25,652 nucleotides of DNA from a virus (IMGVR_UViG_2531839479_000006); one strand, 5' to 3'; shown: positions 1 to 17,867, counted from the stretch's first letter. Notes: generated from the letters alone by a model not told the origin. Numbers and translations: made by a program.

Positions 1-1119
1 TCAAATAACCAACTTAACCCATTCCTGACCTCGAGTATCGTTATAGCGATCGGTGGTTGCCTGGACTTTATGTCCTAGTAATGTTTTTGTATCGATACCC
101 TGTGCACGGTACAGCCGTTCTGATAGAGAGCGTTGTTCATGAAATGTTGGCGGAGTTTTTCCTGCTGGTGGAATTATCCCAGCCAGATCCCGTGCTTTGG
201 CAAAGTAGTCGCTCAGGTTGTCTTTACTCATCGGCTTCGGTTGTTTCTGGTGCCGACTATGGATTAGATATGGACTTAATATTCTGTCTCGGCACCCATC
301 AATAACTTCTTTTAACGTTATCCCAATGGCATCACAGCGTAGTGTAAGCGGTAACGCCAGACGCATTCCGGTTTTTCCCTGGGTGATATGCAAGTGTTCG
401 TTCCACACATCTGAAAAACGCATGTGGCAAATGTCATCACGGCGCTGACCAGTAACAATCGCAAGAAGCATTGCGTTACGGATAAAGTGTTTTTCAGGCG
501 TTGCATTGTAAATTTTTTGCCAGTCTTCCATGGTGAGCCTGGCTCTGGTTACTTTAGGGATCGGTTTACGGGTAGCCTCCGGAGGATTCCATCCAGGAGG
601 AACTTCCCCTGCATGTTGTGCTTCTTTATAAATATCAACCCATAATCCACGATTTACTCTCGCTGTGCTGACCATGTCTTTATCCAGCCACTCATCCAGT
701 ATTAATGCAAAGTCTCTTACTTCCAGTTCTTTCAATGGGTGGTTTCCCAGACGGGAAACCAGGTATGCAGCCATTCGGGCTTTTTCTTTGTGAGTTGTAG
801 TTGCAATATCCCCATTTTTCAGTCGCGTGTCCTGTATTTTCAGATATCGATCAACCCATGCCTTTAATCTGATACCCCGACGTTTTGTTGCTGACGGACT
901 TTCATCAATTTTGCGCATGAAATATTCAGCTTCTGCTGCAGCTATTCGCTGATTGGCTGTGGAAGCGATTTTTTCTGCTTTGCCTTTGTCTGTTCCGAGA
1001 CCGTGAAATTTTCCAGTCACAGGGTTTTTATACTGGTAGTAAACCCTGCCAGTTCTGCGATCAAACTTTTCGTAAAGACCGGTTACGTCAGTGCTGTTTT
1101 TTCGTGGCCTCGGTGACAT
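1..1119 (-). CDS. int: Tyrosine recombinase, lambda-family phage integrase
   Basis: Complete 372-aa ORF ending at the window edge. C-terminal catalytic region follows the lambda Int pattern as I recall it (AIVTGQRRDD, HITQGKTG, PPTFHEQRSLSERLY, GHK...TDRY, ends EWVKLVI). Start overlaps the upstream xis-like ORF. Confidence 0.9.
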   Translation of the reverse strand: MSPRPRKNSTDVTGLYEKFDRRTGRVYYQYKNPVTGKFHGLGTDKGKAEKIASTANQRIAAAEAEYFMRKIDESPSATKRRGIRLKAWVDRYLKIQDTRLKNGDIATTTHKEKARMAAYLVSRLGNHPLKELEVRDFALILDEWLDKDMVSTARVNRGLWVDIYKEAQHAGEVPPGWNPPEATRKPIPKVTRARLTMEDWQKIYNATPEKHFIRNAMLLAIVTGQRRDDICHMRFSDVWNEHLHITQGKTGMRLALPLTLRCDAIGITLKEVIDGCRDRILSPYLIHSRHQKQPKPMSKDNLSDYFAKARDLAGIIPPAGKTPPTFHEQRSLSERLYRAQGIDTKTLLGHKVQATTDRYNDTRGQEWVKLVI

Positions 1120-4605: not shown

Positions 4606-5151
4606 GTTGTTGCAGCGGGGTTGTCACTCAGGCGTATGGTCAACCTGACAACCCGGTGGACATTTGCGAGGAACGGAGAACCCCCGCCATACTTACCGCC
4701 GCGCCATTTCGCGGAGTGCCACAACCGGAAGCGCACGGTCGACGAAAATTTAACGACAGGCTATCTATGAACCAGCAACCTCGCCGTGCGCTTTCGCGTT
4801 ATGCTCTGACTTTTCAGAGAAATATCCTTTCAGTAAACTGTCAGTGCCGGATGCTCACCCGTGTCCGGCGCACACACTCCACCTCACCCGTGGAGAACTC
4901 CTTAATTACCAACCCTCAGGAGGGTGAATGTTAAAATCAACGCTTATTGCTAAATGCCTTTATCAAAATCGCATGGTAAGCAGCATTTCAATAGGCGAAT
5001 CTGCAGTTAAAAGTATTTTCGAAGAGTACTTTCGAAGAGTACTTTTCTGGGCGTGATTTTAATAAATGGAATACCAAATTACCGCCAGCAGTTTCAACGC
5101 GTATTCTGAAAGCAACTGAAAGAGCAAGTACAATTCGCGTTAACTATTTCA

Positions 5152-5559
5152 TTAAAGATTTGTGGGGTCTTTGATATCCACAGAGCCTAAAGTATGTGCA
5201 TATGGATGTGCTATTGTGCGCCCCTGTAAATTTGCATCGTTTTCTAAATCTTTTGATTTCAACAGAACATCAGCAAGACTCTGAATCATGCAGAGATAAT
5301 CAAAAACAGTTGCCGTTTCTGTTCTGACTGCTGAAATAACATGACCATTCAGGCAAACAGAAATTACCCGTTCATCAATATCGTTTTCCTGTTTTTGATT
5401 ATCAGAACAATATAGCCCTGAAAAAGCATTGCGCACATTACGAACCATATTATCGATGGTTTCTTTTTTGGTGTATGCCGGGTCAATTTTCACCAGACTA
5501 TCACCGAGTGTCGTTGCAGCAATTATCTGGATTTCTTTTGGTAAATCTTTAAATTCCAT
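5152..5559 (-). CDS. Hypothetical protein, 135 aa, leftward early operon
   Basis: Clean ORF with GAGG 7 nt upstream of the ATG. Same strand and tight spacing with the flanking leftward genes. No family recognised. Confidence 0.55.
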   Translation of the reverse strand: MEFKDLPKEIQIIAATTLGDSLVKIDPAYTKKETIDNMVRNVRNAFSGLYCSDNQKQENDIDERVISVCLNGHVISAVRTETATVFDYLCMIQSLADVLLKSKDLENDANLQGRTIAHPYAHTLGSVDIKDPTNL

Positions 5560-7137: not shown

Positions 7138-7368
7138 ATGAAAAAATCAGAAGTATTAGGCTATTTTGGCGGAGTTGTTAAAACAGCCGCAGCTCTAGGA
7201 ACGTCAAAAACCACAGTCAGCATGTGGGGGGAAGAGGTTCCGTGGAAATGGGCGTTGCTAATTCAGGCAGTCACTGCCGGGGCGCTCAAATATGAGTTAC
7301 ACATACCGACGGTTGTCATTCCCGGTTCTGATCATAATCCGCCTTCTAACCAAGGGGGGGATTCATGA
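7138..7368 (+). CDS. Cro-like HTH regulator (YdaS-like)
   Basis: Small ORF divergent from the repressor. Start chosen at MKKSEVLG, which has GGAG 7 nt upstream. HTH-like segment VVKTAAALGTSKTTVSMW. Confidence 0.65.
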   Translation: MKKSEVLGYFGGVVKTAAALGTSKTTVSMWGEEVPWKWALLIQAVTAGALKYELHIPTVVIPGSDHNPPSNQGGDS

Positions 7369-7790
7369 AAATCAAGCATGAACACATCCGCATGGCGATG
7401 AATGCCTGGGCGCATCCGGACGGCGAAAAAGTACCGGCTGCGAAAATTACCAAAGCGTATTTCGAGCTGGGAATGACGTTCCCGGAACTGTATGACGACA
7501 GCCATCCGGAAGCCCTGGCTCGCAATACCCAGAAAATTTTCCGCTGGGTAGAGAAAGACACCCCTGATGCAGTTGAAAAAATTCAGGCGTTGTTACCAGC
7601 GATCGAAAAGGCAATGCCACCTTTGCTGGTGGCCAGAATGCGCAGCCACAGTTCAGCTTATTTTCGGGAGCTGGTGGAGACGCGGGAGCGACTGGTGAGA
7701 GACGCTGATGATTTTGTCGCAGTGGCAATCGCCGGTTTCAATCAGATGAACCGTGGTGGCCCGGCAGGAAATGCTGTGGCAGTACATTGA
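7365..7790 (+). CDS. CII-position protein, 141 aa (YdaT-like)
   Basis: Start overlaps the cro-like stop (ATGA). It sits where lambdoid phages have cII; resemblance to YdaT is by size and N-terminal MKIKHEHI only. Confidence 0.55.
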   Translation: MKIKHEHIRMAMNAWAHPDGEKVPAAKITKAYFELGMTFPELYDDSHPEALARNTQKIFRWVEKDTPDAVEKIQALLPAIEKAMPPLLVARMRSHSSAYFRELVETRERLVRDADDFVAVAIAGFNQMNRGGPAGNAVAVH

Positions 7791-9960: not shown

Positions 9961-10074
9961 TCCAAATCTGAATAATTAAATCCAGCACTGTAAATAAAAT
10001 TTAATCCTTAACCGGAGGGATTTCTGCACCCTCAGAACATCAGGAGGCCGCCCGAAAGGGCGGTGGAGATAATA

Positions 10075-10590
10075 ATGGAAATAACTAAAGAACGATTATT
10101 GGAAATAGCAAATCTTAGTGAAAGGGCATTAAGTGATGGGAGGATTATTTCTCCTGATGCTTATGAATCAGTTACAAGTATAGAAATAATAACGATGGCC
10201 AGGATGCTTCTTGCTCGCTTCAAAAAAGAATATAAAAAACAGGTAGATAGCAATGCTAATATATATGATATTTTGGACTGTTGGGGAGCTTGGGCTGTAG
10301 CTGGAAATAGTTCTATCAACTGGCAGCAAGTGGCTGATAAATATAAAGATGTTGTGCCTCATGGTAAAAAATTGCGTCGCCAGAGCAGCGATGATGAAGG
10401 GCGAGTGATTGATGAGTGGATATTGAGACTCAGACAATATAAAATAGATGAATATGAGTTAATTGTTGCCCACTTTGTAATAGGCGTTTCTTTGAGAAAG
10501 ATCGCAAAAAGAAAGAAATGTGCGGATGGGACTATTAGAAAAAAAATACAAGCAGCGATGGGAGTATTGGAGGGAGTATTAATGCTCTAA
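10075..10590 (+). CDS. Q-like regulator (antiterminator-Q family fold, C-terminal sigma-70 region-4-like HTH), AT-rich
   Basis: ATG with GGAG 6 nt upstream. Shares a W-G-x-W motif and a C-terminal basic HTH (SLRKIAKRKK...TIRKKI) with the prophage Q at 15304-15858 (WGRW ... MSKRKMAELL ... RNRI). Composition matches the AT-rich insertion. Confidence 0.55.
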   Translation: MEITKERLLEIANLSERALSDGRIISPDAYESVTSIEIITMARMLLARFKKEYKKQVDSNANIYDILDCWGAWAVAGNSSINWQQVADKYKDVVPHGKKLRRQSSDDEGRVIDEWILRLRQYKIDEYELIVAHFVIGVSLRKIAKRKKCADGTIRKKIQAAMGVLEGVLML

Positions 10591-10599
10591 CTGTTAGAG

Positions 10600-11820
10600 C
10601 TAAATAAAAATCTTCGCAAGAAATATTCCTGCTGCAATAGAACTTGGTAGCCAAGCCAAATACATAAATAACTTTATTGTATTATCACATTTGGTTTGGC
10701 TCTTTGATAGTTCATATAGAGCCTCATTAATGTCCTTCTTAAGGTCTTCTGGATAATTTTCATTGTTTTTTAGAAAAGGCATAAATGCTATATCTTTAGC
10801 ATGGTAAATATGTTTTAATTGTTTATCCTGATTGAGTAATACCATATATAAAATAAGTGAGCTTAACAATACACCTAATAAAACGAGTAACATTTCAGAT
10901 CTTGATGTTAGTTTTATAATCCCGAAGGATGCCAGTAAAGACACAGGGATTGATAATACTTTTGTCGTCAAATCAGTAATAAGTTTTGAGATTTTTTCAG
11001 CAAACTCTGCTTCAGACTTCGCAATTTCTTTTCGTGCCTTATGGAATGAAAAACCACTCATATACGTGGATAAATTATTTTCAAATAGCTTTACAAATTT
11101 ATCCCAATGGCAAATTAGGTTTTCAAAATCATATTTGTTATCGAGAATAAACTCCACTATGGTATTCCTGAAAATACCTGTTTTTTCTGCTTGATGGGGG
11201 ATTTGGGCGTTTTTTACATCTAAAAGACTCTTGATGATAGCATCATCAATGTCATTTATATTGAGCATCTTAGGTGTAATGCACGTTTCTAAAATAATAG
11301 ATGTTGATTTTGCGTCAGAATCTTTCACGAAAACTAAACGATAATTTGAAGATTCCGATTTTGTATCGTGAAAGTGCGCAATCTCAGCCAGGGAAGAAAT
11401 AATTGCACAAATTTTCTCGATTTTTATAATTTCGTCCGGTTTACTTGAATCAGACGGATGAAAATCCTCATCGATTATGTAATACTCTTTAGGAATTACA
11501 CCTTTCTTGAGTGAGTTTATACAAAGGAACTCTTGAATTGAGTTATAGAAACGTTCTGCTCCATTTTTAGGGGATATGTAAGTGTATGAGAATTTATCTC
11601 CAATTTTAATTGGGTGTGATTTTAAATCGTCTTCGTCAATGAACTCATTATTAATATCAACATCTTCAAAATAACCGTAGGCTTTATGTGAATTTACTAA
11701 CAAGTTTACCAAACGTTGATTGTTATTATTTATTTCAACAGTTGCAGAAAAAGAACGTCCGTCGAATTGGGGCTTCGATGATGCTCTATAAAAATCTACA
11801 ACCGTTGATAAATTAGCCAT
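10600..11820 (-). CDS. Membrane-anchored protein, ~406 aa: soluble N-terminal domain plus 2-3 C-terminal TM helices; candidate effector
   Basis: Long AT-rich ORF. C-terminal hydrophobic helices EMLLVLLGVLLSSLILYMVLL and LFMYLAWLPSSIAAGIFLAKIFI. Its ATG lies inside the last codons of the upstream gene (ATGGCTAA), indicating translational coupling. Confidence 0.8.
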   Translation of the reverse strand: MANLSTVVDFYRASSKPQFDGRSFSATVEINNNNQRLVNLLVNSHKAYGYFEDVDINNEFIDEDDLKSHPIKIGDKFSYTYISPKNGAERFYNSIQEFLCINSLKKGVIPKEYYIIDEDFHPSDSSKPDEIIKIEKICAIISSLAEIAHFHDTKSESSNYRLVFVKDSDAKSTSIILETCITPKMLNINDIDDAIIKSLLDVKNAQIPHQAEKTGIFRNTIVEFILDNKYDFENLICHWDKFVKLFENNLSTYMSGFSFHKARKEIAKSEAEFAEKISKLITDLTTKVLSIPVSLLASFGIIKLTSRSEMLLVLLGVLLSSLILYMVLLNQDKQLKHIYHAKDIAFMPFLKNNENYPEDLKKDINEALYELSKSQTKCDNTIKLFMYLAWLPSSIAAGIFLAKIFI

Positions 11821-12955
11821 TTTCTTTTCCACTATCCCTTATTTTTAAATTTTCTTTTACCACAGCGCTTAGTTTAGCCTTAAATTCAGCTGGTAAGTTT
11901 GTAAATGATAATCTTCCAGTTGTTTCATCGTACCACACATCATCATCAGCTGTCACTCCAAGGAGAGACTTGTCAAAATTAAATCCAATCTCATCAGTCT
12001 TAAAGGTGATGTTTTTAATGTCTTTCAACGCCCGTTTACTGATAACAAATTCAGTTGGGATTCTCACATTTTCACTATTTAAAAAAAGAATTAATTCGTG
12101 AGTGTAAGATTCTTTGGTAGACTCATCTAAATTTGTCATGTGACGTGCTGCAATTACTTCAATATCACTCAATCGGGCTGATAAATTTTTAGCTGCTTGT
12201 GTGTCTAAATATGCAATAACGTCATGTTTAAATCTATTGGCACATGCTTTAAGTTCTGGTTTTTGGTTAAAAAATTGTTTTGCGACAGTTGGTAGTTTTT
12301 TTGTGGCTTTTGCTGCTGCAAGTGATTTGTCGCATCCTATTGCTGCAATAAAATATGCTGATGTGGATTGACCCACTCCTTTACTTACGAAACTTAGATA
12401 ACTTAAGTCAATTTTTTCAGACTCATCAGCAGTTTTATATTGTTGGTAGAGATTGAAATTTATTCTTGCTGCTTGGTGTATTTTGGATAGATCCAAATGG
12501 ATCATTTCTTCAGGTTCGAGTTTGTTGCTGATAGTAACACCATTTTTCTTTTTAATCATTGCAATTAAAAAGAATTTATTGTTATTTACAATATAGTCAC
12601 AAAACACAATAAAACCACCAGATGACCAAGGTTCTTCTTTGGCTTTTTTTACAAGTTGCTTCATCACTTCAATAGAAAAAGGCACAAACTTTTCATTAAT
12701 GTTATCCTCTGACTGAGAATACTCTTCAAATATTGATGGCACAGGCCCTTGTTCTGTTTTCTCCTCTTTAAAAACGCCATAATGTGCAGAATTGCCTTTG
12801 GTTCCATATAAAGATGAAATGTCTTGAATAAGTTTTATAACAATTGGATTGGTTTTATCGAGAGGAGTGGATCTAAGCTGATACGGCTTAGAAAAATCAA
12901 AATCCTTTTTTGCTTCTTTAATTAGTTCATGAACGATAACTTGCTTAATTTCCAT
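11813..12955 (-). CDS. NdpA/YejK-family (nucleoid-associated protein, 37-kDa family) homologue, diverged, 380 aa
   Basis: Blocks match E. coli YejK as I recall it: IVHELIK vs ALHQLIK, SGGFIVFCDY vs DGGFVLFCHY, YLSFVSKGVGQ vs YLTFLKGRVGR, and the C-terminal GFNFD...LLG...D.TTGRLSF vs [30 protein letters not shown] upstream. Confidence 0.8.
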   Translation of the reverse strand: MEIKQVIVHELIKEAKKDFDFSKPYQLRSTPLDKTNPIVIKLIQDISSLYGTKGNSAHYGVFKEEKTEQGPVPSIFEEYSQSEDNINEKFVPFSIEVMKQLVKKAKEEPWSSGGFIVFCDYIVNNNKFFLIAMIKKKNGVTISNKLEPEEMIHLDLSKIHQAARINFNLYQQYKTADESEKIDLSYLSFVSKGVGQSTSAYFIAAIGCDKSLAAAKATKKLPTVAKQFFNQKPELKACANRFKHDVIAYLDTQAAKNLSARLSDIEVIAARHMTNLDESTKESYTHELILFLNSENVRIPTEFVISKRALKDIKNITFKTDEIGFNFDKSLLGVTADDDVWYDETTGRLSFTNLPAEFKAKLSAVVKENLKIRDSGKENG

Positions 12956-13045
12956 ATTGAAAATATCACCTATGTTATTGTTAGATCGTTTGTGATTTTT
13001 TTACCATCACAACAACGACACAAAATCATTAATGCGTACGCAAAA

Positions 13046-13074
13046 ATTTTGAATAATGAGTTAATCAATGTCAA
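13046..13074 (-). promoter_or_regulatory. Candidate promoter for the NdpA-like/membrane-protein operon
   Basis: Minus-strand TTGACA (13069-13074), a 17-bp spacer, then CAAAAT (13046-13051), about 90 nt upstream of the NdpA-like ATG. Pattern match only. Confidence 0.3.
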
Positions 13075-13230
13075 TAGTTAAACACACTACCGCTGTAGAG
13101 TTGTTGTCATTAAATTGCGTCATAAGTAGAATTGCTGCGGGTGCTTGAGGCTATCTGTCTCAGGCATGAACACCAAAAGGCAGATAGAGAAAAGCCCCAC
13201 CCGACTATAAATCGAAGTGAGGCCAGTCTT

Positions 13231-13437
13231 ATGTCTCGACAACTGAAGATTAGCCTCTTACGTGCCGAAAGGCAAGGAGAAGCAGGCTATGAAGCAGCAA
13301 AAGGCGATGTTAATCGCCCTGATCGTCATCTGTTTAACCGTCATAGTGACGGCACTGATAACGAGGAAAGACCTCTGCGAGGTACGAATCCGAACCGGCC
13401 AGACGGAGGTCGCTGTCTTCACAGCTTACGAACCTGA
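13231..13437 (+). CDS. mok: Mok-like overlapping reading frame of the hok locus
   Basis: ORF starting MSRQLK with GAAGTGAGG upstream, overlapping hok in another frame as in hok/sok loci. Confidence 0.45.
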   Translation: MSRQLKISLLRAERQGEAGYEAAKGDVNRPDRHLFNRHSDGTDNEERPLRGTNPNRPDGGRCLHSLRT

Positions 13438-13444
13438 GGAGTAA
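13289..13444 (+). CDS. hok: Hok/Gef-family type I toxin, 51 aa
   Basis: MKQQKAMLIALIVICLTVIVTALITRKDLCEVRIRTGQTEVAVFTAYEPEE is near-identical to the Hok/HokD family sequence as I recall it. AGGAGA 8 nt upstream. Confidence 0.85.
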   Translation: MKQQKAMLIALIVICLTVIVTALITRKDLCEVRIRTGQTEVAVFTAYEPEE

Positions 13445-13513
13445 GAGACCAGGTGAGGGAGAAATCCCTCGCCACCTCTGATGAGTCAGGCATCCTCAAC
13501 GCACCCGCACTTA

Positions 13514-13539
13514 ACCCGCTTCGGCGGGTTTTGTTTTTT
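13514..13539 (+). terminator. Rho-independent terminator downstream of hok
   Basis: CCCGC-TTCG-GCGGG stem-loop followed by TTTTGTTTTTT. Confidence 0.6.
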
Positions 13540-13611
13540 CCTGGCATTCTGGTTTACAATTCGCACGCCAGCCTGAACAACTGGCACCTGCTGCGCCAGC
13601 AGAGACAACCG

Positions 13612-15307: not shown

Positions 15308-15858
15308 TCGTAAATATGATATACCCGGAAATTACAGGCAAAAGCGGCGAGCATTTACGTCTAAAAACGCTGGAAGCCGTCTGGATCCAGGGGAAATTAC
15401 GGATGTGGGGGCGTTGGTCGTATATAGGTGGTGGCAAACCAGGAAATATGTTCAATCAGTTGCTGGCATCCAAAAAACTGACAAAAACCGCAATCAATGA
15501 AGCCCTGCGTAGAATCAGGGAGTCAGGGATTGATAAACCAGAGCTGGAAGCATTCTTGCGAGAGATGATCGCTGGCAGACAGAAGAGCTGGTTGTCTCAC
15601 TGTACTGATGCAGAGGCGTTACGCATTGATGGGGTGATAAGTAAAGCGCTTGCACGTTATCCTGGATTGATTGATATCCTGCGGCAAAGGTACGAAGGGC
15701 GGGGGATGAGTAAACGCAAAATGGCTGAATTGTTGAATGAGGTTCACCCTGAGTGGTGCTATGCAACATGCCGCAATCGTATAGATATGTGGCTGAGAAT
15801 AGCTGAGTTTATTCTGTATCCACTGATGCGAGATGCATTTTCTTTTACTGACGCTTAG
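15304..15858 (+). CDS. Late gene antiterminator Q
   Basis: Overlaps the rusA stop. Followed by a roughly 190-bp leader and a strong intrinsic terminator, as for lambda PR'/qut/tR'. Contains a WGRW motif and a C-terminal HTH. Confidence 0.65.
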   Translation: MIVNMIYPEITGKSGEHLRLKTLEAVWIQGKLRMWGRWSYIGGGKPGNMFNQLLASKKLTKTAINEALRRIRESGIDKPELEAFLREMIAGRQKSWLSHCTDAEALRIDGVISKALARYPGLIDILRQRYEGRGMSKRKMAELLNEVHPEWCYATCRNRIDMWLRIAEFILYPLMRDAFSFTDA

Positions 15859-17617: not shown

Positions 17618-17693
17618 GGCCCTTTAGCTCAGTGGTGAGAGCGAGCGACTCATAATCGCCAGGTCGCTGGTTCAAATCCAGCAAGGGCCACCA
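17618..17693 (+). tRNA. tRNA with CAU anticodon, Ile2-like (lysidine type)
   Basis: Cloverleaf folded by hand: acceptor GGCCCTT/AAGGGCC, D-arm GCTC/GAGC, anticodon loop CTCATAA, T-loop TTCAAAT, CCA encoded. Close to E. coli ileX as I recall it. Confidence 0.85.
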
Positions 17694-17700
17694 TCACATA

Positions 17701-17777
17701 CCGCCATTAGCTCATCAGGATAGAGCGCCAGCCTTCGAAGCTGGTTGCGCGGGGTTCGAGTCCTCGATGGCGGTCCA
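17701..17777 (+). tRNA. tRNA-Arg (anticodon UCG)
   Basis: Acceptor CCGCCAT/ATGGCGG (C1-G72), D-arm GCTC/GAGC, anticodon stem CCAGC/GCTGG with loop CTTCGAA, T-loop TTCGAGT, CCA encoded. Confidence 0.75.
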
Positions 17778-17790
17778 TTATCTGTACCCT

Positions 17791-17867
17791 GCGTTGTTAG
17801 CTCAGCCGGACAGAGCAATTGCCTTCTAAGCAATCGGTCACTGGTTCGAATCCAGTACAACGCGCCA
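17791..17867 (+). tRNA. tRNA-Arg (anticodon UCU)
   Basis: Acceptor GCGTTGT/ACAACGC, anticodon stem ATTGC/GCAAT with loop CTTCTAA, T-loop TTCGAAT, CCA encoded. Confidence 0.85.

What the first reader, a model, noticed from the sequence alone, without database searches (positions are those of the whole stretch)
13132..13539. hok/mok type I toxin locus immediately next to the AT-rich insertion
A 51-aa Hok-family toxin with an overlapping mok-like frame and a downstream intrinsic terminator. By analogy to hok/sok, an antisense Sok-like RNA is expected on the minus strand near 13180-13260, but I cannot delimit it by eye. A dyad CTATCTG...CAGATAG at about 13152-13188 may belong to the mRNA fold-back elements. 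An addiction toxin beside the accessory island may stabilise the region.
Basis: partly seen in the sequence, partly recalled or inferred. Interest (0 to 1): 0.5.

Follow-up and report, generated by a model that had tools for sequence, protein, structure and literature searches.

The report
Ordinary prophage hok/mok/sok toxin–antitoxin locus
This is a complete, textbook hok/mok/sok type I toxin–antitoxin cassette (hokD type) in the backbone of an E. coli lambda-like prophage. It is real and apparently intact, but it belongs to a well-known, already annotated kind.

Summary
Window 13104-13540 holds a complete hok/mok/sok locus.

- **Toxin.** The 51-aa Hok ORF (13289-13444) matches Pfam HOK_GEF at 82 bits and differs from K-12 HokD at one residue.
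- **mok.** An out-of-frame mok ORF runs 13231-13437.
- **RNA family.** The Rfam hok-leader model RF01794 scores 122 bits against a cut-off of 59.
- **Transcription signals.** There is a sigma-70-like hok promoter and an intrinsic terminator.
- **Sok.** By homology with annotated K-12 SokC, a 57-nt antisense Sok RNA runs 13240 to about 13184 on the minus strand, with its own promoter.

Folding reproduces the plasmid R1 switch. The full-length mRNA pairs its 5' end (tac) with a 3' element (fbi) and hides the mok ribosome-binding site. Removing the 3' end shifts it to tac/ucb plus the Sok-target hairpin. Covariation across 36 loci from several genera supports these helices.

The same DNA is annotated hokD in RefSeq E. 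coli genomes, and a close relative (hokW-sokW of prophage Sp5) has been characterised experimentally.

The cassette belongs to the prophage backbone (replication genes, variable cargo slot, hok, DUF968, RusA, Q). The AT-rich two-gene island simply occupies that slot, so nothing supports hok specifically stabilising it.

Novelty: already known. Interest is low.

The parts
13104..13109 (+). hok promoter -35 (TTGTCA)
   Evidence: Consensus scan: TTGTCA, 17 nt, TAGAAT, 10 of 12 matches. The same upstream block (13078-13132) accompanies a hok locus in an unrelated contig, L015, so it belongs to the hok unit and not to the island.
13127..13132 (+). hok promoter -10 (TAGAAT)
   Evidence: A TAnAAT-like hexamer lies at a fixed distance from GGGTGCTTGAG in nearly all intact homologues.
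13139..13540 (+). Full-length hok (mok-hok) mRNA, about 400 nt
   Evidence: The 5' end is inferred from the -10 spacing and from position 1 of the Rfam model. The 3' end is set by the terminator. MFE is -159.9 kcal/mol, z = -6.8.
13139..13150 (+). tac (translational activator element), GGGUGCUUGAGG
   Evidence: Pairs with fbi in the full-length fold and with ucb in 3'-truncated folds. The duplex is -21.5 kcal/mol and is kept, with compensatory changes, in all intact loci.
13151..13187 (+).
   Evidence: Present in all predicted conformations. It is 93.9% paired over 36 loci, with 3 pairs changed on both sides. It corresponds to the first hairpin of RF01794.
13192..13198 (+). ucb / anti-SD (AAGCCCC)
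   Evidence: 13194-13198 pair with the mok SD region (13219-13223) in the full-length fold, and 13192-13198 pair with tac in truncated folds. The ucb/SD helix is 95% paired with 4 compensatory pairs. The tac/ucb helix is invariant.
13219..13257 (+). Sok-target hairpin of the truncated mRNA: mok SD GAGG 13219-13222, loop CUCGACA 13235-13241, dcb GCCUC 13253-13257
   Evidence: Forms only when the 3' end is removed. An equivalent hairpin of -10 to -16 kcal/mol is predicted in all 36 homologues despite sequence divergence.
13231..13437 (+). mok ORF (68 codons, -58 relative to the hok ATG)
   Evidence: Weak Pfam DUF5431 match at 20.9 bits, below the cut-off of 27.
13276..13279 (+). hok Shine-Dalgarno (GGAG)
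   Evidence: Read from the sequence. The AAGGAG block is nearly invariant in homologues.
13289..13444 (+). hok ORF, 51 aa: MKQQKAMLIALIVICLTVIVTALITRKDLCEVRIRTGQTEVAVFTAYEPEE
   Evidence: Pfam HOK_GEF 82.1 bits. Annotated hokD in RefSeq. One nucleotide, and so one residue (V24I), differs from K-12 hokD.
13427..13430 (+). TACG at Tyr47: candidate TadA A-to-I editing site (Tyr to Cys)
   Evidence: TACG is invariant in all 46 aligned homologues. Editing of the hokC, hokD and hokE mRNAs at this position is reported in PMC12214031.
13452..13473 (+). 3' UTR hairpin that would cap the processed mRNA
   Evidence: A 9-bp stem in the folds, 97.6% paired with 3 compensatory pairs. In R1 the equivalent last stem-loop protects the truncated mRNA from exonucleases (PMC9841398).
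13494..13506 (+). fbi (fold-back inhibitory element), CCUCAACGCACCC
   Evidence: Pairs with 13139-13150. Compensatory changes U-A to C-G and G-C to A-U occur in other genera.
13513..13540 (+). Intrinsic terminator of the hok mRNA
   Evidence: A 7-bp GC-rich stem with a 4-nt loop, followed by TTTTGTTTTTT.
13247..13275 (-). Sok promoter: -35 TTGCCT (reverse complement of 13270-13275), 17-nt spacer, -10 TAATCT (reverse complement of 13247-13252)
   Evidence: Same geometry as upstream of annotated K-12 sokC: TTGACC, 17 nt, CACTCT, 6 nt, then G. The hexamers are weak (4/6 and 3/6), so the consensus scan missed them.
13184..13240 (-). Sok antisense RNA, about 57 nt: GUCGAGACAUAAGACUGGCCUCACUUCGAUUUAUAGUCGGGUGGGGCUUUUCUCUAU
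   Evidence: Delimited by homology with the 59-nt sokC of K-12, which starts opposite mok +9 and ends in CUUUUCUCUAU. It has a 5' single-stranded tail, a hairpin (about -19.5 kcal/mol) and a U-rich tail. Its ends have not been mapped experimentally.

Best explanation
This is an intact hok/mok/sok type I toxin-antitoxin cassette of the hokD lineage, carried in the backbone of an E. coli lambdoid prophage. It most likely works like hok/sok of plasmid R1.

1. A constitutive promoter makes a roughly 400-nt mok-hok mRNA. Its 5' end (tac) pairs with a 3' element (fbi). An upstream box (ucb) sequesters the mok ribosome-binding site, so this form is neither translated nor bound by Sok.
2. Slow 3' trimming removes fbi. 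The mRNA then refolds into tac/ucb plus a mok-SD/dcb hairpin. This form can be translated, with hok translation coupled to mok. It also exposes the loop that the 5' tail of Sok recognises.
3. While the short-lived 57-nt Sok is being made from the opposite strand, it pairs with this form and the duplex is destroyed.
4. If Sok synthesis stops, the stable mRNA pool is translated. The 51-aa Hok peptide then inserts into the inner membrane and collapses it.

The sequence elements, the two alternative folds and their conservation are shown here. Transcription, processing, RNase III cleavage and toxicity are inferred from R1, hokW-sokW and HokD.

The most likely role in this setting is the one shown for hokW-sokW in prophage Sp5: Sok disappears after prophage induction, and Hok helps lysis and phage release. 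General stabilisation of the prophage is a possible additional role.
For: - **Toxin.** Pfam HOK_GEF 82 bits. One residue differs from K-12 HokD. HokD was toxic in the assays of the Hok survey preprint (10.1101/2025.08.07.668861).
- **RNA family.** Rfam RF01794 122 bits, full length 1-157.
- **Transcription signals.** Promoter and terminator.
- **tac/fbi.** A 12-bp duplex of -21.5 kcal/mol is present in the MFE fold.
- **Conformational switch.** In silico 3' truncation moves tac from fbi to ucb and moves the mok SD from ucb to dcb. This is the switch described for R1 (PMC9841398).
- **Covariation.** On 36 loci from Escherichia, Kluyvera, Photorhabdus, Pantoea, Citrobacter and others, 87.8% of cells are paired, against 39-48% when partners are slid. 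35 pairs changed on both sides, and 0 of 500 shuffles reached that number.
- **Sok.** Promoter geometry and RNA architecture match annotated K-12 SokC.
- **Public annotation.** Identical DNA is annotated hokD in RefSeq.
- **Experimental relative.** hokW-sokW is a working type I TA in a lambdoid prophage (PMC8621323). Its hok CDS is 94% identical.
- **Intactness.** There is no IS element or rearrangement. K-12 hokD has lost everything upstream of the hok SD, and the sister strain 214-4 carries IS150 at the mok SD.
Against: - No expression data exist for this locus.
- The Sok promoter hexamers are weak (-10 matches 3 of 6) and Sok's ends rest on homology alone.
- NCBIfam Hok models score below their curated cut-offs (48.9 against 73).
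- Earlier work, as summarised in 10.1101/2025.08.07.668861, found that structurally intact chromosomal hokA, hokB and hokC loci neither mediated post-segregational killing nor responded to rifampicin. Intact anatomy therefore does not guarantee activity.
- The Sok body and tail differ from hokW-sokW (28-48% identity in that segment), so the properties of sokW cannot simply be transferred.
Confidence: 0.88

Rival explanations
1. The cassette is anatomically intact but physiologically silent. It would be a relic carried passively in the prophage, like the chromosomal hok loci reported not to kill after rifampicin treatment or plasmid loss.
For: The literature summary reports that hokA (E. coli C), hokB (K-12) and hokC (ECOR24) did not mediate post-segregational killing. 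hok loci decay often: IS150 sits in this very locus in strain 214-4, K-12 hokD is truncated, and several fetched loci lack tac or fbi. The prophage may itself be defective, since cro is annotated as frameshifted.
Against: All regulatory helices are intact and match covarying positions. The hok CDS is under tight conservation among alleles, with pairwise difference of 0.08 or less over most of its length, rising to about 0.17 in the last codons. The close relative hokW-sokW is active in a prophage.
Confidence: 0.2
2. The cassette would act as an addiction module that specifically stabilises the neighbouring AT-rich accessory island.
For: The two are physically adjacent. In 3 of the 4 genomes with the island, an uninterrupted hok locus directly adjoins it; in the fourth, IS150 interrupts the hok leader.
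Against: The hok-DUF968-RusA-Q module is found without the island in many prophages, with other cargo upstream: paa, relBE, small nin-like ORFs or an unknown gene. The island is in only 4 of 5426 genomes, whereas 4948 have a match to the hok locus. Precise loss of the island would leave hok/sok in place and carry no penalty. In strain 214-4 both the island's NAP gene and hok are damaged. A large survey found hok no more often near defence systems than expected by chance.
Confidence: 0.04
3. The molecular mechanism is the same, but the main role would be exclusion of superinfecting phages (abortive infection). Host transcription shut-off by a lytic phage would deplete Sok and kill the cell early.
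For: [quoted passage not shown] The cassette sits next to a likely defence operon in a prophage cargo slot.
Against: hok loci are not enriched near defence systems. The only prophage-borne relative tested acted in the prophage's own induction and lysis. No defence phenotype has been reported at native copy number.
Confidence: 0.15

Closest known systems
hokD (relF) of E. coli K-12 cryptic prophage Qin
   Same: The Hok protein is identical at 50 of 51 residues (V24I). The hok SD, CDS, 3' UTR hairpin, fbi and terminator are nearly identical. The backbone context is the same: hok, rem-like ORF, ydfU (DUF968), Q.
   Different: In K-12, homology starts only at the hok SD (window about 13276). relBE replaces the hok promoter, tac, ucb, the mok start and Sok. 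The window carries the complete, unrearranged form.
hokW-sokW of Stx2 prophage Sp5 / 933W-like phages (Takada et al. 2021, PMC8621323)
   Same: A lambdoid-prophage hok/sok. The hok CDS is 94% identical, the leader 5' part 92%, and the Sok promoter, dcb and hok SD block 98%. It has been shown experimentally to be a type I TA that depends on RNase III and Hfq and aids lysis after induction.
   Different: The Sok body differs. hokW has the long hairpin type, with 21 extra nt, so the window's 25-nt Sok-hairpin segment matches at only 13 of 46 alignment columns. The Sok 5' tail and mok start region is 48% identical. The mok register also differs: one base fewer in hokW.
hok/sok of plasmid R1 (parB)
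   Same: It has the same set of elements (tac, ucb, mok SD, dcb, fbi, out-of-frame mok, antisense Sok with a 5' tail plus hairpin) and the same predicted switch between full-length and truncated folds.
   Different: R1 is plasmid-borne and its Hok protein is more distant. Takada et al. give 44% identity between HokW and R1 Hok. I did not align R1 here. Post-segregational killing is proven for R1 and untested here.
hokC/mokC/sokC (gef) of E. coli K-12
   Same: The leader and Sok architecture are the same. RF01794 scores 118 bits there. The annotated 59-nt SokC served as the template for delimiting Sok here.
   Different: mokC is in frame with hokC (same stop codon), whereas mok is out of frame here. 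The Sok hairpin sequence is of another type. In K-12 the locus is flanked by IS186 at its 3' end and has lost fbi.

Membership tests
Hok/Gef toxin family (Pfam PF01848) | Protein of about 50 aa matching the HOK_GEF profile above the gathering score | tested here: met
   82.1 bits against a cut-off of 22, residues 6-47 covering profile positions 1-42 of 42.
Hok/Gef toxin family (NCBIfam curated Hok models) | Score above the curated cut-off of PRK09738 (Hok subfamily) or PRK09759 (HokA) | tested here: not met
   48.9 against 73 and 40.4 against 89. These models are tuned to other Hok subgroups. RefSeq nevertheless names the identical protein a Hok family toxin / hokD.
hok mRNA leader (Rfam RF01794, named 'sok') | Full-length match above the gathering score on the hok-sense strand | tested here: met
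   122.1 bits against 59, model positions 1-157, plus strand. A control on K-12 shows that the model hits the hokC and hokB mRNA strand, opposite to the annotated sokC and sokB.
hok/sok type I TA system (R1 paradigm) | Long-range tac/fbi pairing between the 5' and 3' ends of the mRNA | tested here: met
   12 bp, -21.5 kcal/mol, present in the MFE fold. It is 93% paired over 36 loci, with 4 pairs changed on both sides.
hok/sok type I TA system (R1 paradigm) | Alternative pairings: ucb with the mok SD in the full-length form; tac/ucb plus mok SD/dcb in the 3'-processed form | tested here: met
   Predicted folds of 13139-13537 compared with 13139-13493 and 13139-13487. The ucb/SD helix covaries. 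The tac/ucb and SD/dcb base pairs are invariant, which is consistent but uninformative. This is prediction only, with no probing.
hok/sok type I TA system (R1 paradigm) | mok reading frame with its own SD, starting upstream of hok and overlapping it | tested here: met
   ATG 13231, GAGG 8 nt upstream, 68 codons overlapping hok out of frame. Translational coupling was not tested.
hok/sok type I TA system (R1 paradigm) | Antisense Sok gene with its own promoter, complementary to the mok translation-initiation region | tested here: inconclusive
   Promoter geometry and RNA architecture are homologous to annotated sokC, and the fold is a tail plus a hairpin. However, the hexamers are weak and the consensus scan missed them. 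No transcript data exist.
hok/sok type I TA system (R1 paradigm) | Hok is toxic; Sok neutralises it; RNase III cleaves the duplex; the mRNA is processed at its 3' end | not testable with these tools
   These points are inferred from HokD toxicity assays and from hokW-sokW experiments.

The most novel reading that the evidence does not exclude
The locus is a recombinant. Its hok CDS is 99% identical to common E. coli hokD alleles. Its 25-nt Sok hairpin body belongs to a different, short class that is identical in an O157 paa-linked hokD and matches Photorhabdus at 24 of 25 positions. Its Sok 5' tail and target-loop segment is only 36-61% identical to the four alleles compared segment by segment, although STEC388 carries the same segment. 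The exact Sok segment occurs in only 17 of 5426 E. coli genomes. The most novel reading not excluded is that shuffling of the Sok/target module is selected to give co-resident prophage hok/sok cassettes mutually orthogonal antitoxins. E. coli genomes show up to 11 matches to this hok locus.
Probability: 0.3. Interest if true: 0.35.

Novelty: already known. Interest (0 to 1): 0.1.

Why it matters
It matters little beyond correct annotation. The analysis delimits the unannotated parts of a RefSeq "hokD" locus: Sok, mok, tac, ucb, dcb and fbi. It shows that this copy is the complete form of the rearranged K-12 hokD. It also places hok in the conserved lambdoid backbone, next to a variable cargo slot. 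Two practical points follow. The Rfam family named "sok" actually models the hok-sense leader, so its strand should not be read as the strand of Sok. The neighbouring AT-rich operon, not hok, is the more interesting object in this region.

Tried and rejected
1. **Is the hok -35 supplied by the AT-rich insertion?** Megablast homology to most hokD loci begins only at 13123, which suggested this. I rejected it because the block 13078-13132, including TTGTCA, accompanies hok in an unrelated contig, L015.
2. **The 101-aa ORF from 13132 as mok.** Rejected, because it starts upstream of the transcript start. ATG 13231 with an SD is the homologous start.
3. **An ungapped search for fbi.** It picked wrong sites, because the E. 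coli duplex has a bulged C. I replaced it with duplex folding on aligned segments.
4. **An isrK-like sRNA in the hok 3' UTR.** The match scores 24 bits against a gathering score of 50. It rests on a generic hairpin plus terminator, so I rejected it.
5. **A terminator-like site on the minus strand at 13203-13181**. It is rich in G-U pairs and overlaps the ucb and dyad region. The Sok 3' end is better placed by homology at the CUUUUCUCUAU tail.
6. **A YUNR U-turn motif in the Sok-target loop.** It is present here (CUCG) but in only 21 of 36 homologues by a simple test, so I did not use it as evidence.
7. **PADLOC on the two island proteins.** No hit.
8. **Sequence diversity among close alleles.** It peaks in the Sok-tail segment (0.30), but also in two hairpin loops (0.29 and 0.34) and at the 3' edge of the alignment (0.42). 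The segment is therefore variable but not uniquely so.

Full report
**What is there**

Window 13100-13545 was read directly. A 51-aa ORF runs from ATG 13289 to TAA 13444 and encodes MKQQKAMLIALIVICLTVIVTALITRKDLCEVRIRTGQTEVAVFTAYEPEE. It matches Pfam HOK_GEF at 82.1 bits, E = 2e-23. NCBIfam Hok models match only below their curated cut-offs.

A second frame overlaps it. The homologous mok start is ATG 13231, preceded by GAGG at 13219-13222. This gives 68 codons ending at TGA 13437, offset by -58 nt from hok.

Rfam RF01794 ("sok") matches 13139-13294 on the plus strand at 122.1 bits against a gathering score of 59, over the whole model. A sigma-70-like promoter (TTGTCA 13104, 17 nt, TAGAAT 13132) and an intrinsic terminator (13513-13530 plus a T-run) bracket the unit.

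**Where it comes from**

The region is 100% identical to the chromosome of E. coli strain 602354, where the ORF is annotated hokD. The window as a whole is a lambdoid prophage. Its order is integrase, exonuclease, dicB, repressor and cro, replication genes, a Q-family gene, two minus-strand genes in AT-rich DNA, hokD, DUF968, RusA, DUF1133, a methyltransferase, three tRNAs, holins, terminase and portal.

Related DNA occurs in 4948 of 5426 complete E. coli genomes, with up to 11 copies per genome. It also occurs in 78 phage records, many of them Stx-converting phages.

**Delimiting Sok**

The Rfam model named "sok" is built on the hok-sense strand. In K-12 it hits the strand of hokC and hokB, while sokC and sokB are annotated on the opposite strand. 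So it identifies the locus but does not delimit Sok.

K-12 SokC is 59 nt. It starts opposite mok position +9 and ends in CUUUUCUCUAU. The window has the same geometry on its minus strand: -35 TTGCCT (reverse complement of 13270-13275), a 17-nt spacer, -10 TAATCT (reverse complement of 13247-13252), 6 nt, then G at 13240. Homology ends at about 13184. The predicted 57-nt RNA has a single-stranded 5' tail, a hairpin of about -19.5 kcal/mol and a U-rich tail.

The hexamers are weak and the consensus scan did not report them, so expression remains inferred.

**How it most likely works**

For R1 the literature describes three steps (PMC9841398).
- The full-length mRNA is closed by tac/fbi pairing, with the mok SD sequestered by ucb.
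[quoted passage not shown] This form is translatable and is also the form Sok binds.
- RNase III destroys the duplex.

The window reproduces this in silico. In the 399-nt transcript (-159.9 kcal/mol, z = -6.8), 13139-13150 pair with 13494-13506, and the mok SD region 13219-13223 pairs with 13194-13198. When the 3' end is cut at 13493 or 13487, 13139-13146 pair with 13192-13198 instead. 13219-13223 then pair with 13253-13257, forming a hairpin whose loop (CUCGACA, 13235-13241) is complementary to the first bases of Sok.

**Comparative support**

A scan of one genome per species returned 59 related loci, and 36 with intact leaders were aligned.
- The window's full-length structure is 87.8% paired on that alignment, against 39-48% when partners are slid. 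35 pairs changed on both sides, and 0 of 500 shuffles reached that number.
- tac/fbi is 93% paired, with U-A to C-G and G-C to A-U compensations in Photorhabdus, Pantoea and Kluyvera.
- The ucb/SD helix is 95% paired with 4 compensatory pairs.
- tac/ucb and the base of SD/dcb never vary, which is consistent but uninformative.
- Loci with rearrangements or IS elements have lost the tac/fbi duplex.

**Relation to known loci**

K-12 hokD shares only the hok SD, CDS, 3' UTR and terminator. relBE replaces everything upstream. The window therefore holds the complete form of that gene, and the Hok protein differs at one residue.

hokW-sokW of Sp5-type phages has a 94% identical CDS. It is an experimentally shown type I TA in which Sok disappears after mitomycin C treatment and Hok accelerates lysis and phage release. 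This is the best guide to the role here.

The invariant TACG at Tyr47 (13427-13430) corresponds to the reported TadA editing site of hokC, hokD and hokE, which creates the second cysteine.

**Mosaicism**

- The Sok hairpin body (13200-13224) matches the long hairpin type of hokW, and of an allele whose CDS is 99% identical, at only 13-14 of 46 alignment columns.
- The same segment is identical in an O157 paa-linked hokD and matches a Photorhabdus locus at 24 of 25 positions.
- The Sok-tail and mok-start segment (13225-13246) is 36-61% identical to all four compared alleles.
- The exact 77-nt Sok segment is in 17 genomes, and the hairpin type is in 608.
- All 36 homologues keep a Sok-target hairpin of -10 to -16 kcal/mol despite this divergence.
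- Diversity is also high in two hairpin loops and at the 3' edge of the alignment, so the segment is variable but not uniquely so.

**The island and the stabilisation idea**

The AT-rich DNA (about 10591-13077) encodes a YejK-like NA37 protein and an overlapping 406-aa protein of unknown family. It is in only 4 of 5426 E. coli genomes.

Other prophages carry different genes at the same position upstream of hok. These are paa in O157 and PPompW phages, relBE in K-12 Qin, small ORFs in an Stx2k prophage, and an unknown gene in phage Tritos. Downstream they share hok, DUF968 and Q, with RusA between the last two in most.

hok is therefore backbone, and the island occupies a cargo slot next to it. 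Deleting the island alone would not remove hok/sok, so the cassette cannot selectively protect it. A published survey found no enrichment of hok near defence systems.

**Verdict**

The feature is a canonical and apparently intact member of a thoroughly studied family, and it is already annotated in public genomes. Interest is low.

Noticed in passing
window 10600-12955 (minus strand); island about 10591-13077: The AT-rich (31-34% GC) island is a two-gene operon. It encodes a YejK-like nucleoid-associated protein (Pfam NA37, 176 bits; weak NCBIfam hit to 'nucleoid-associated anti-phage protein') and an overlapping 406-aa protein with no Pfam or PADLOC match. It resembles the bicistronic NAP-sensor 'PANGU' defence systems described in bioRxiv 10.64898/2026.04.06.716658, but with an uncharacterised effector. 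It is present in only 4 of 5426 E. coli genomes. This looks more interesting than the hok locus.
   Followed up: partly
L069 (E. coli 214-4, NZ_CP025840.1), corresponding to window ~13215-13219: In a sister strain with the same island-hok arrangement, IS150 is inserted at the mok Shine-Dalgarno. It separates the promoter, tac and ucb from mok and hok, and it cuts Sok. The NAP gene there is also frameshifted. This is a natural inactivation of this very locus, like the IS-disrupted hok loci of K-12.
   Followed up: yes
window 13139-13294; L061 502-654; L062 567-718: Rfam RF01794, named 'sok antitoxin', models the hok-sense leader down to the hok AUG. It is not the antisense RNA. In K-12 it hits the strand opposite to annotated sokC and sokB. 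Annotations that take its strand at face value will place Sok on the wrong strand, with the wrong length.
   Followed up: yes
window 13427-13430: The Tyr47 codon plus the next base (TACG) is invariant in all 46 aligned hok homologues, although TAT would also encode Tyr. This fits the reported TadA A-to-I editing that recodes Tyr to Cys in the hokC, hokD and hokE mRNAs.
   Followed up: partly
window 13231-13243, compared with L002, L003, L006, L009 and L016-L023: A 1-nt length difference just after the mok ATG changes the mok register. mok is out of frame with hok here (-58, as in R1 and hokB). It appears in frame (-57, giving an N-terminally extended Hok) in many near-identical E. coli hokD alleles, as annotated for K-12 mokC. 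I checked the register directly only for L003 and mokC.
   Followed up: partly
window 10063-10590 and about 15316-15858: Two antiterminator-Q-like genes flank the region: a Phage_antitermQ protein just left of the island, and a DUF1133 protein after RusA. This suggests a recombination joint between two lambdoid nin/Q regions at the cargo slot.
   Followed up: no
window 17618-17864: A cluster of three tRNA genes lies downstream of the Q region (Ile/Arg/Arg according to RefSeq). In the Stx2k prophage of STEC388 a tRNA cluster of the same annotation and order is followed directly by stx2k. Here it is followed by holin genes and no toxin gene.
   Followed up: no
window about 7138-7381: The cro/cI-family gene of this prophage is annotated as frameshifted in the identical RefSeq record, and another small ORF near 4928-5174 is as well. 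The prophage may therefore be defective, which bears on whether an induction-linked role for hok can operate here.
   Followed up: no
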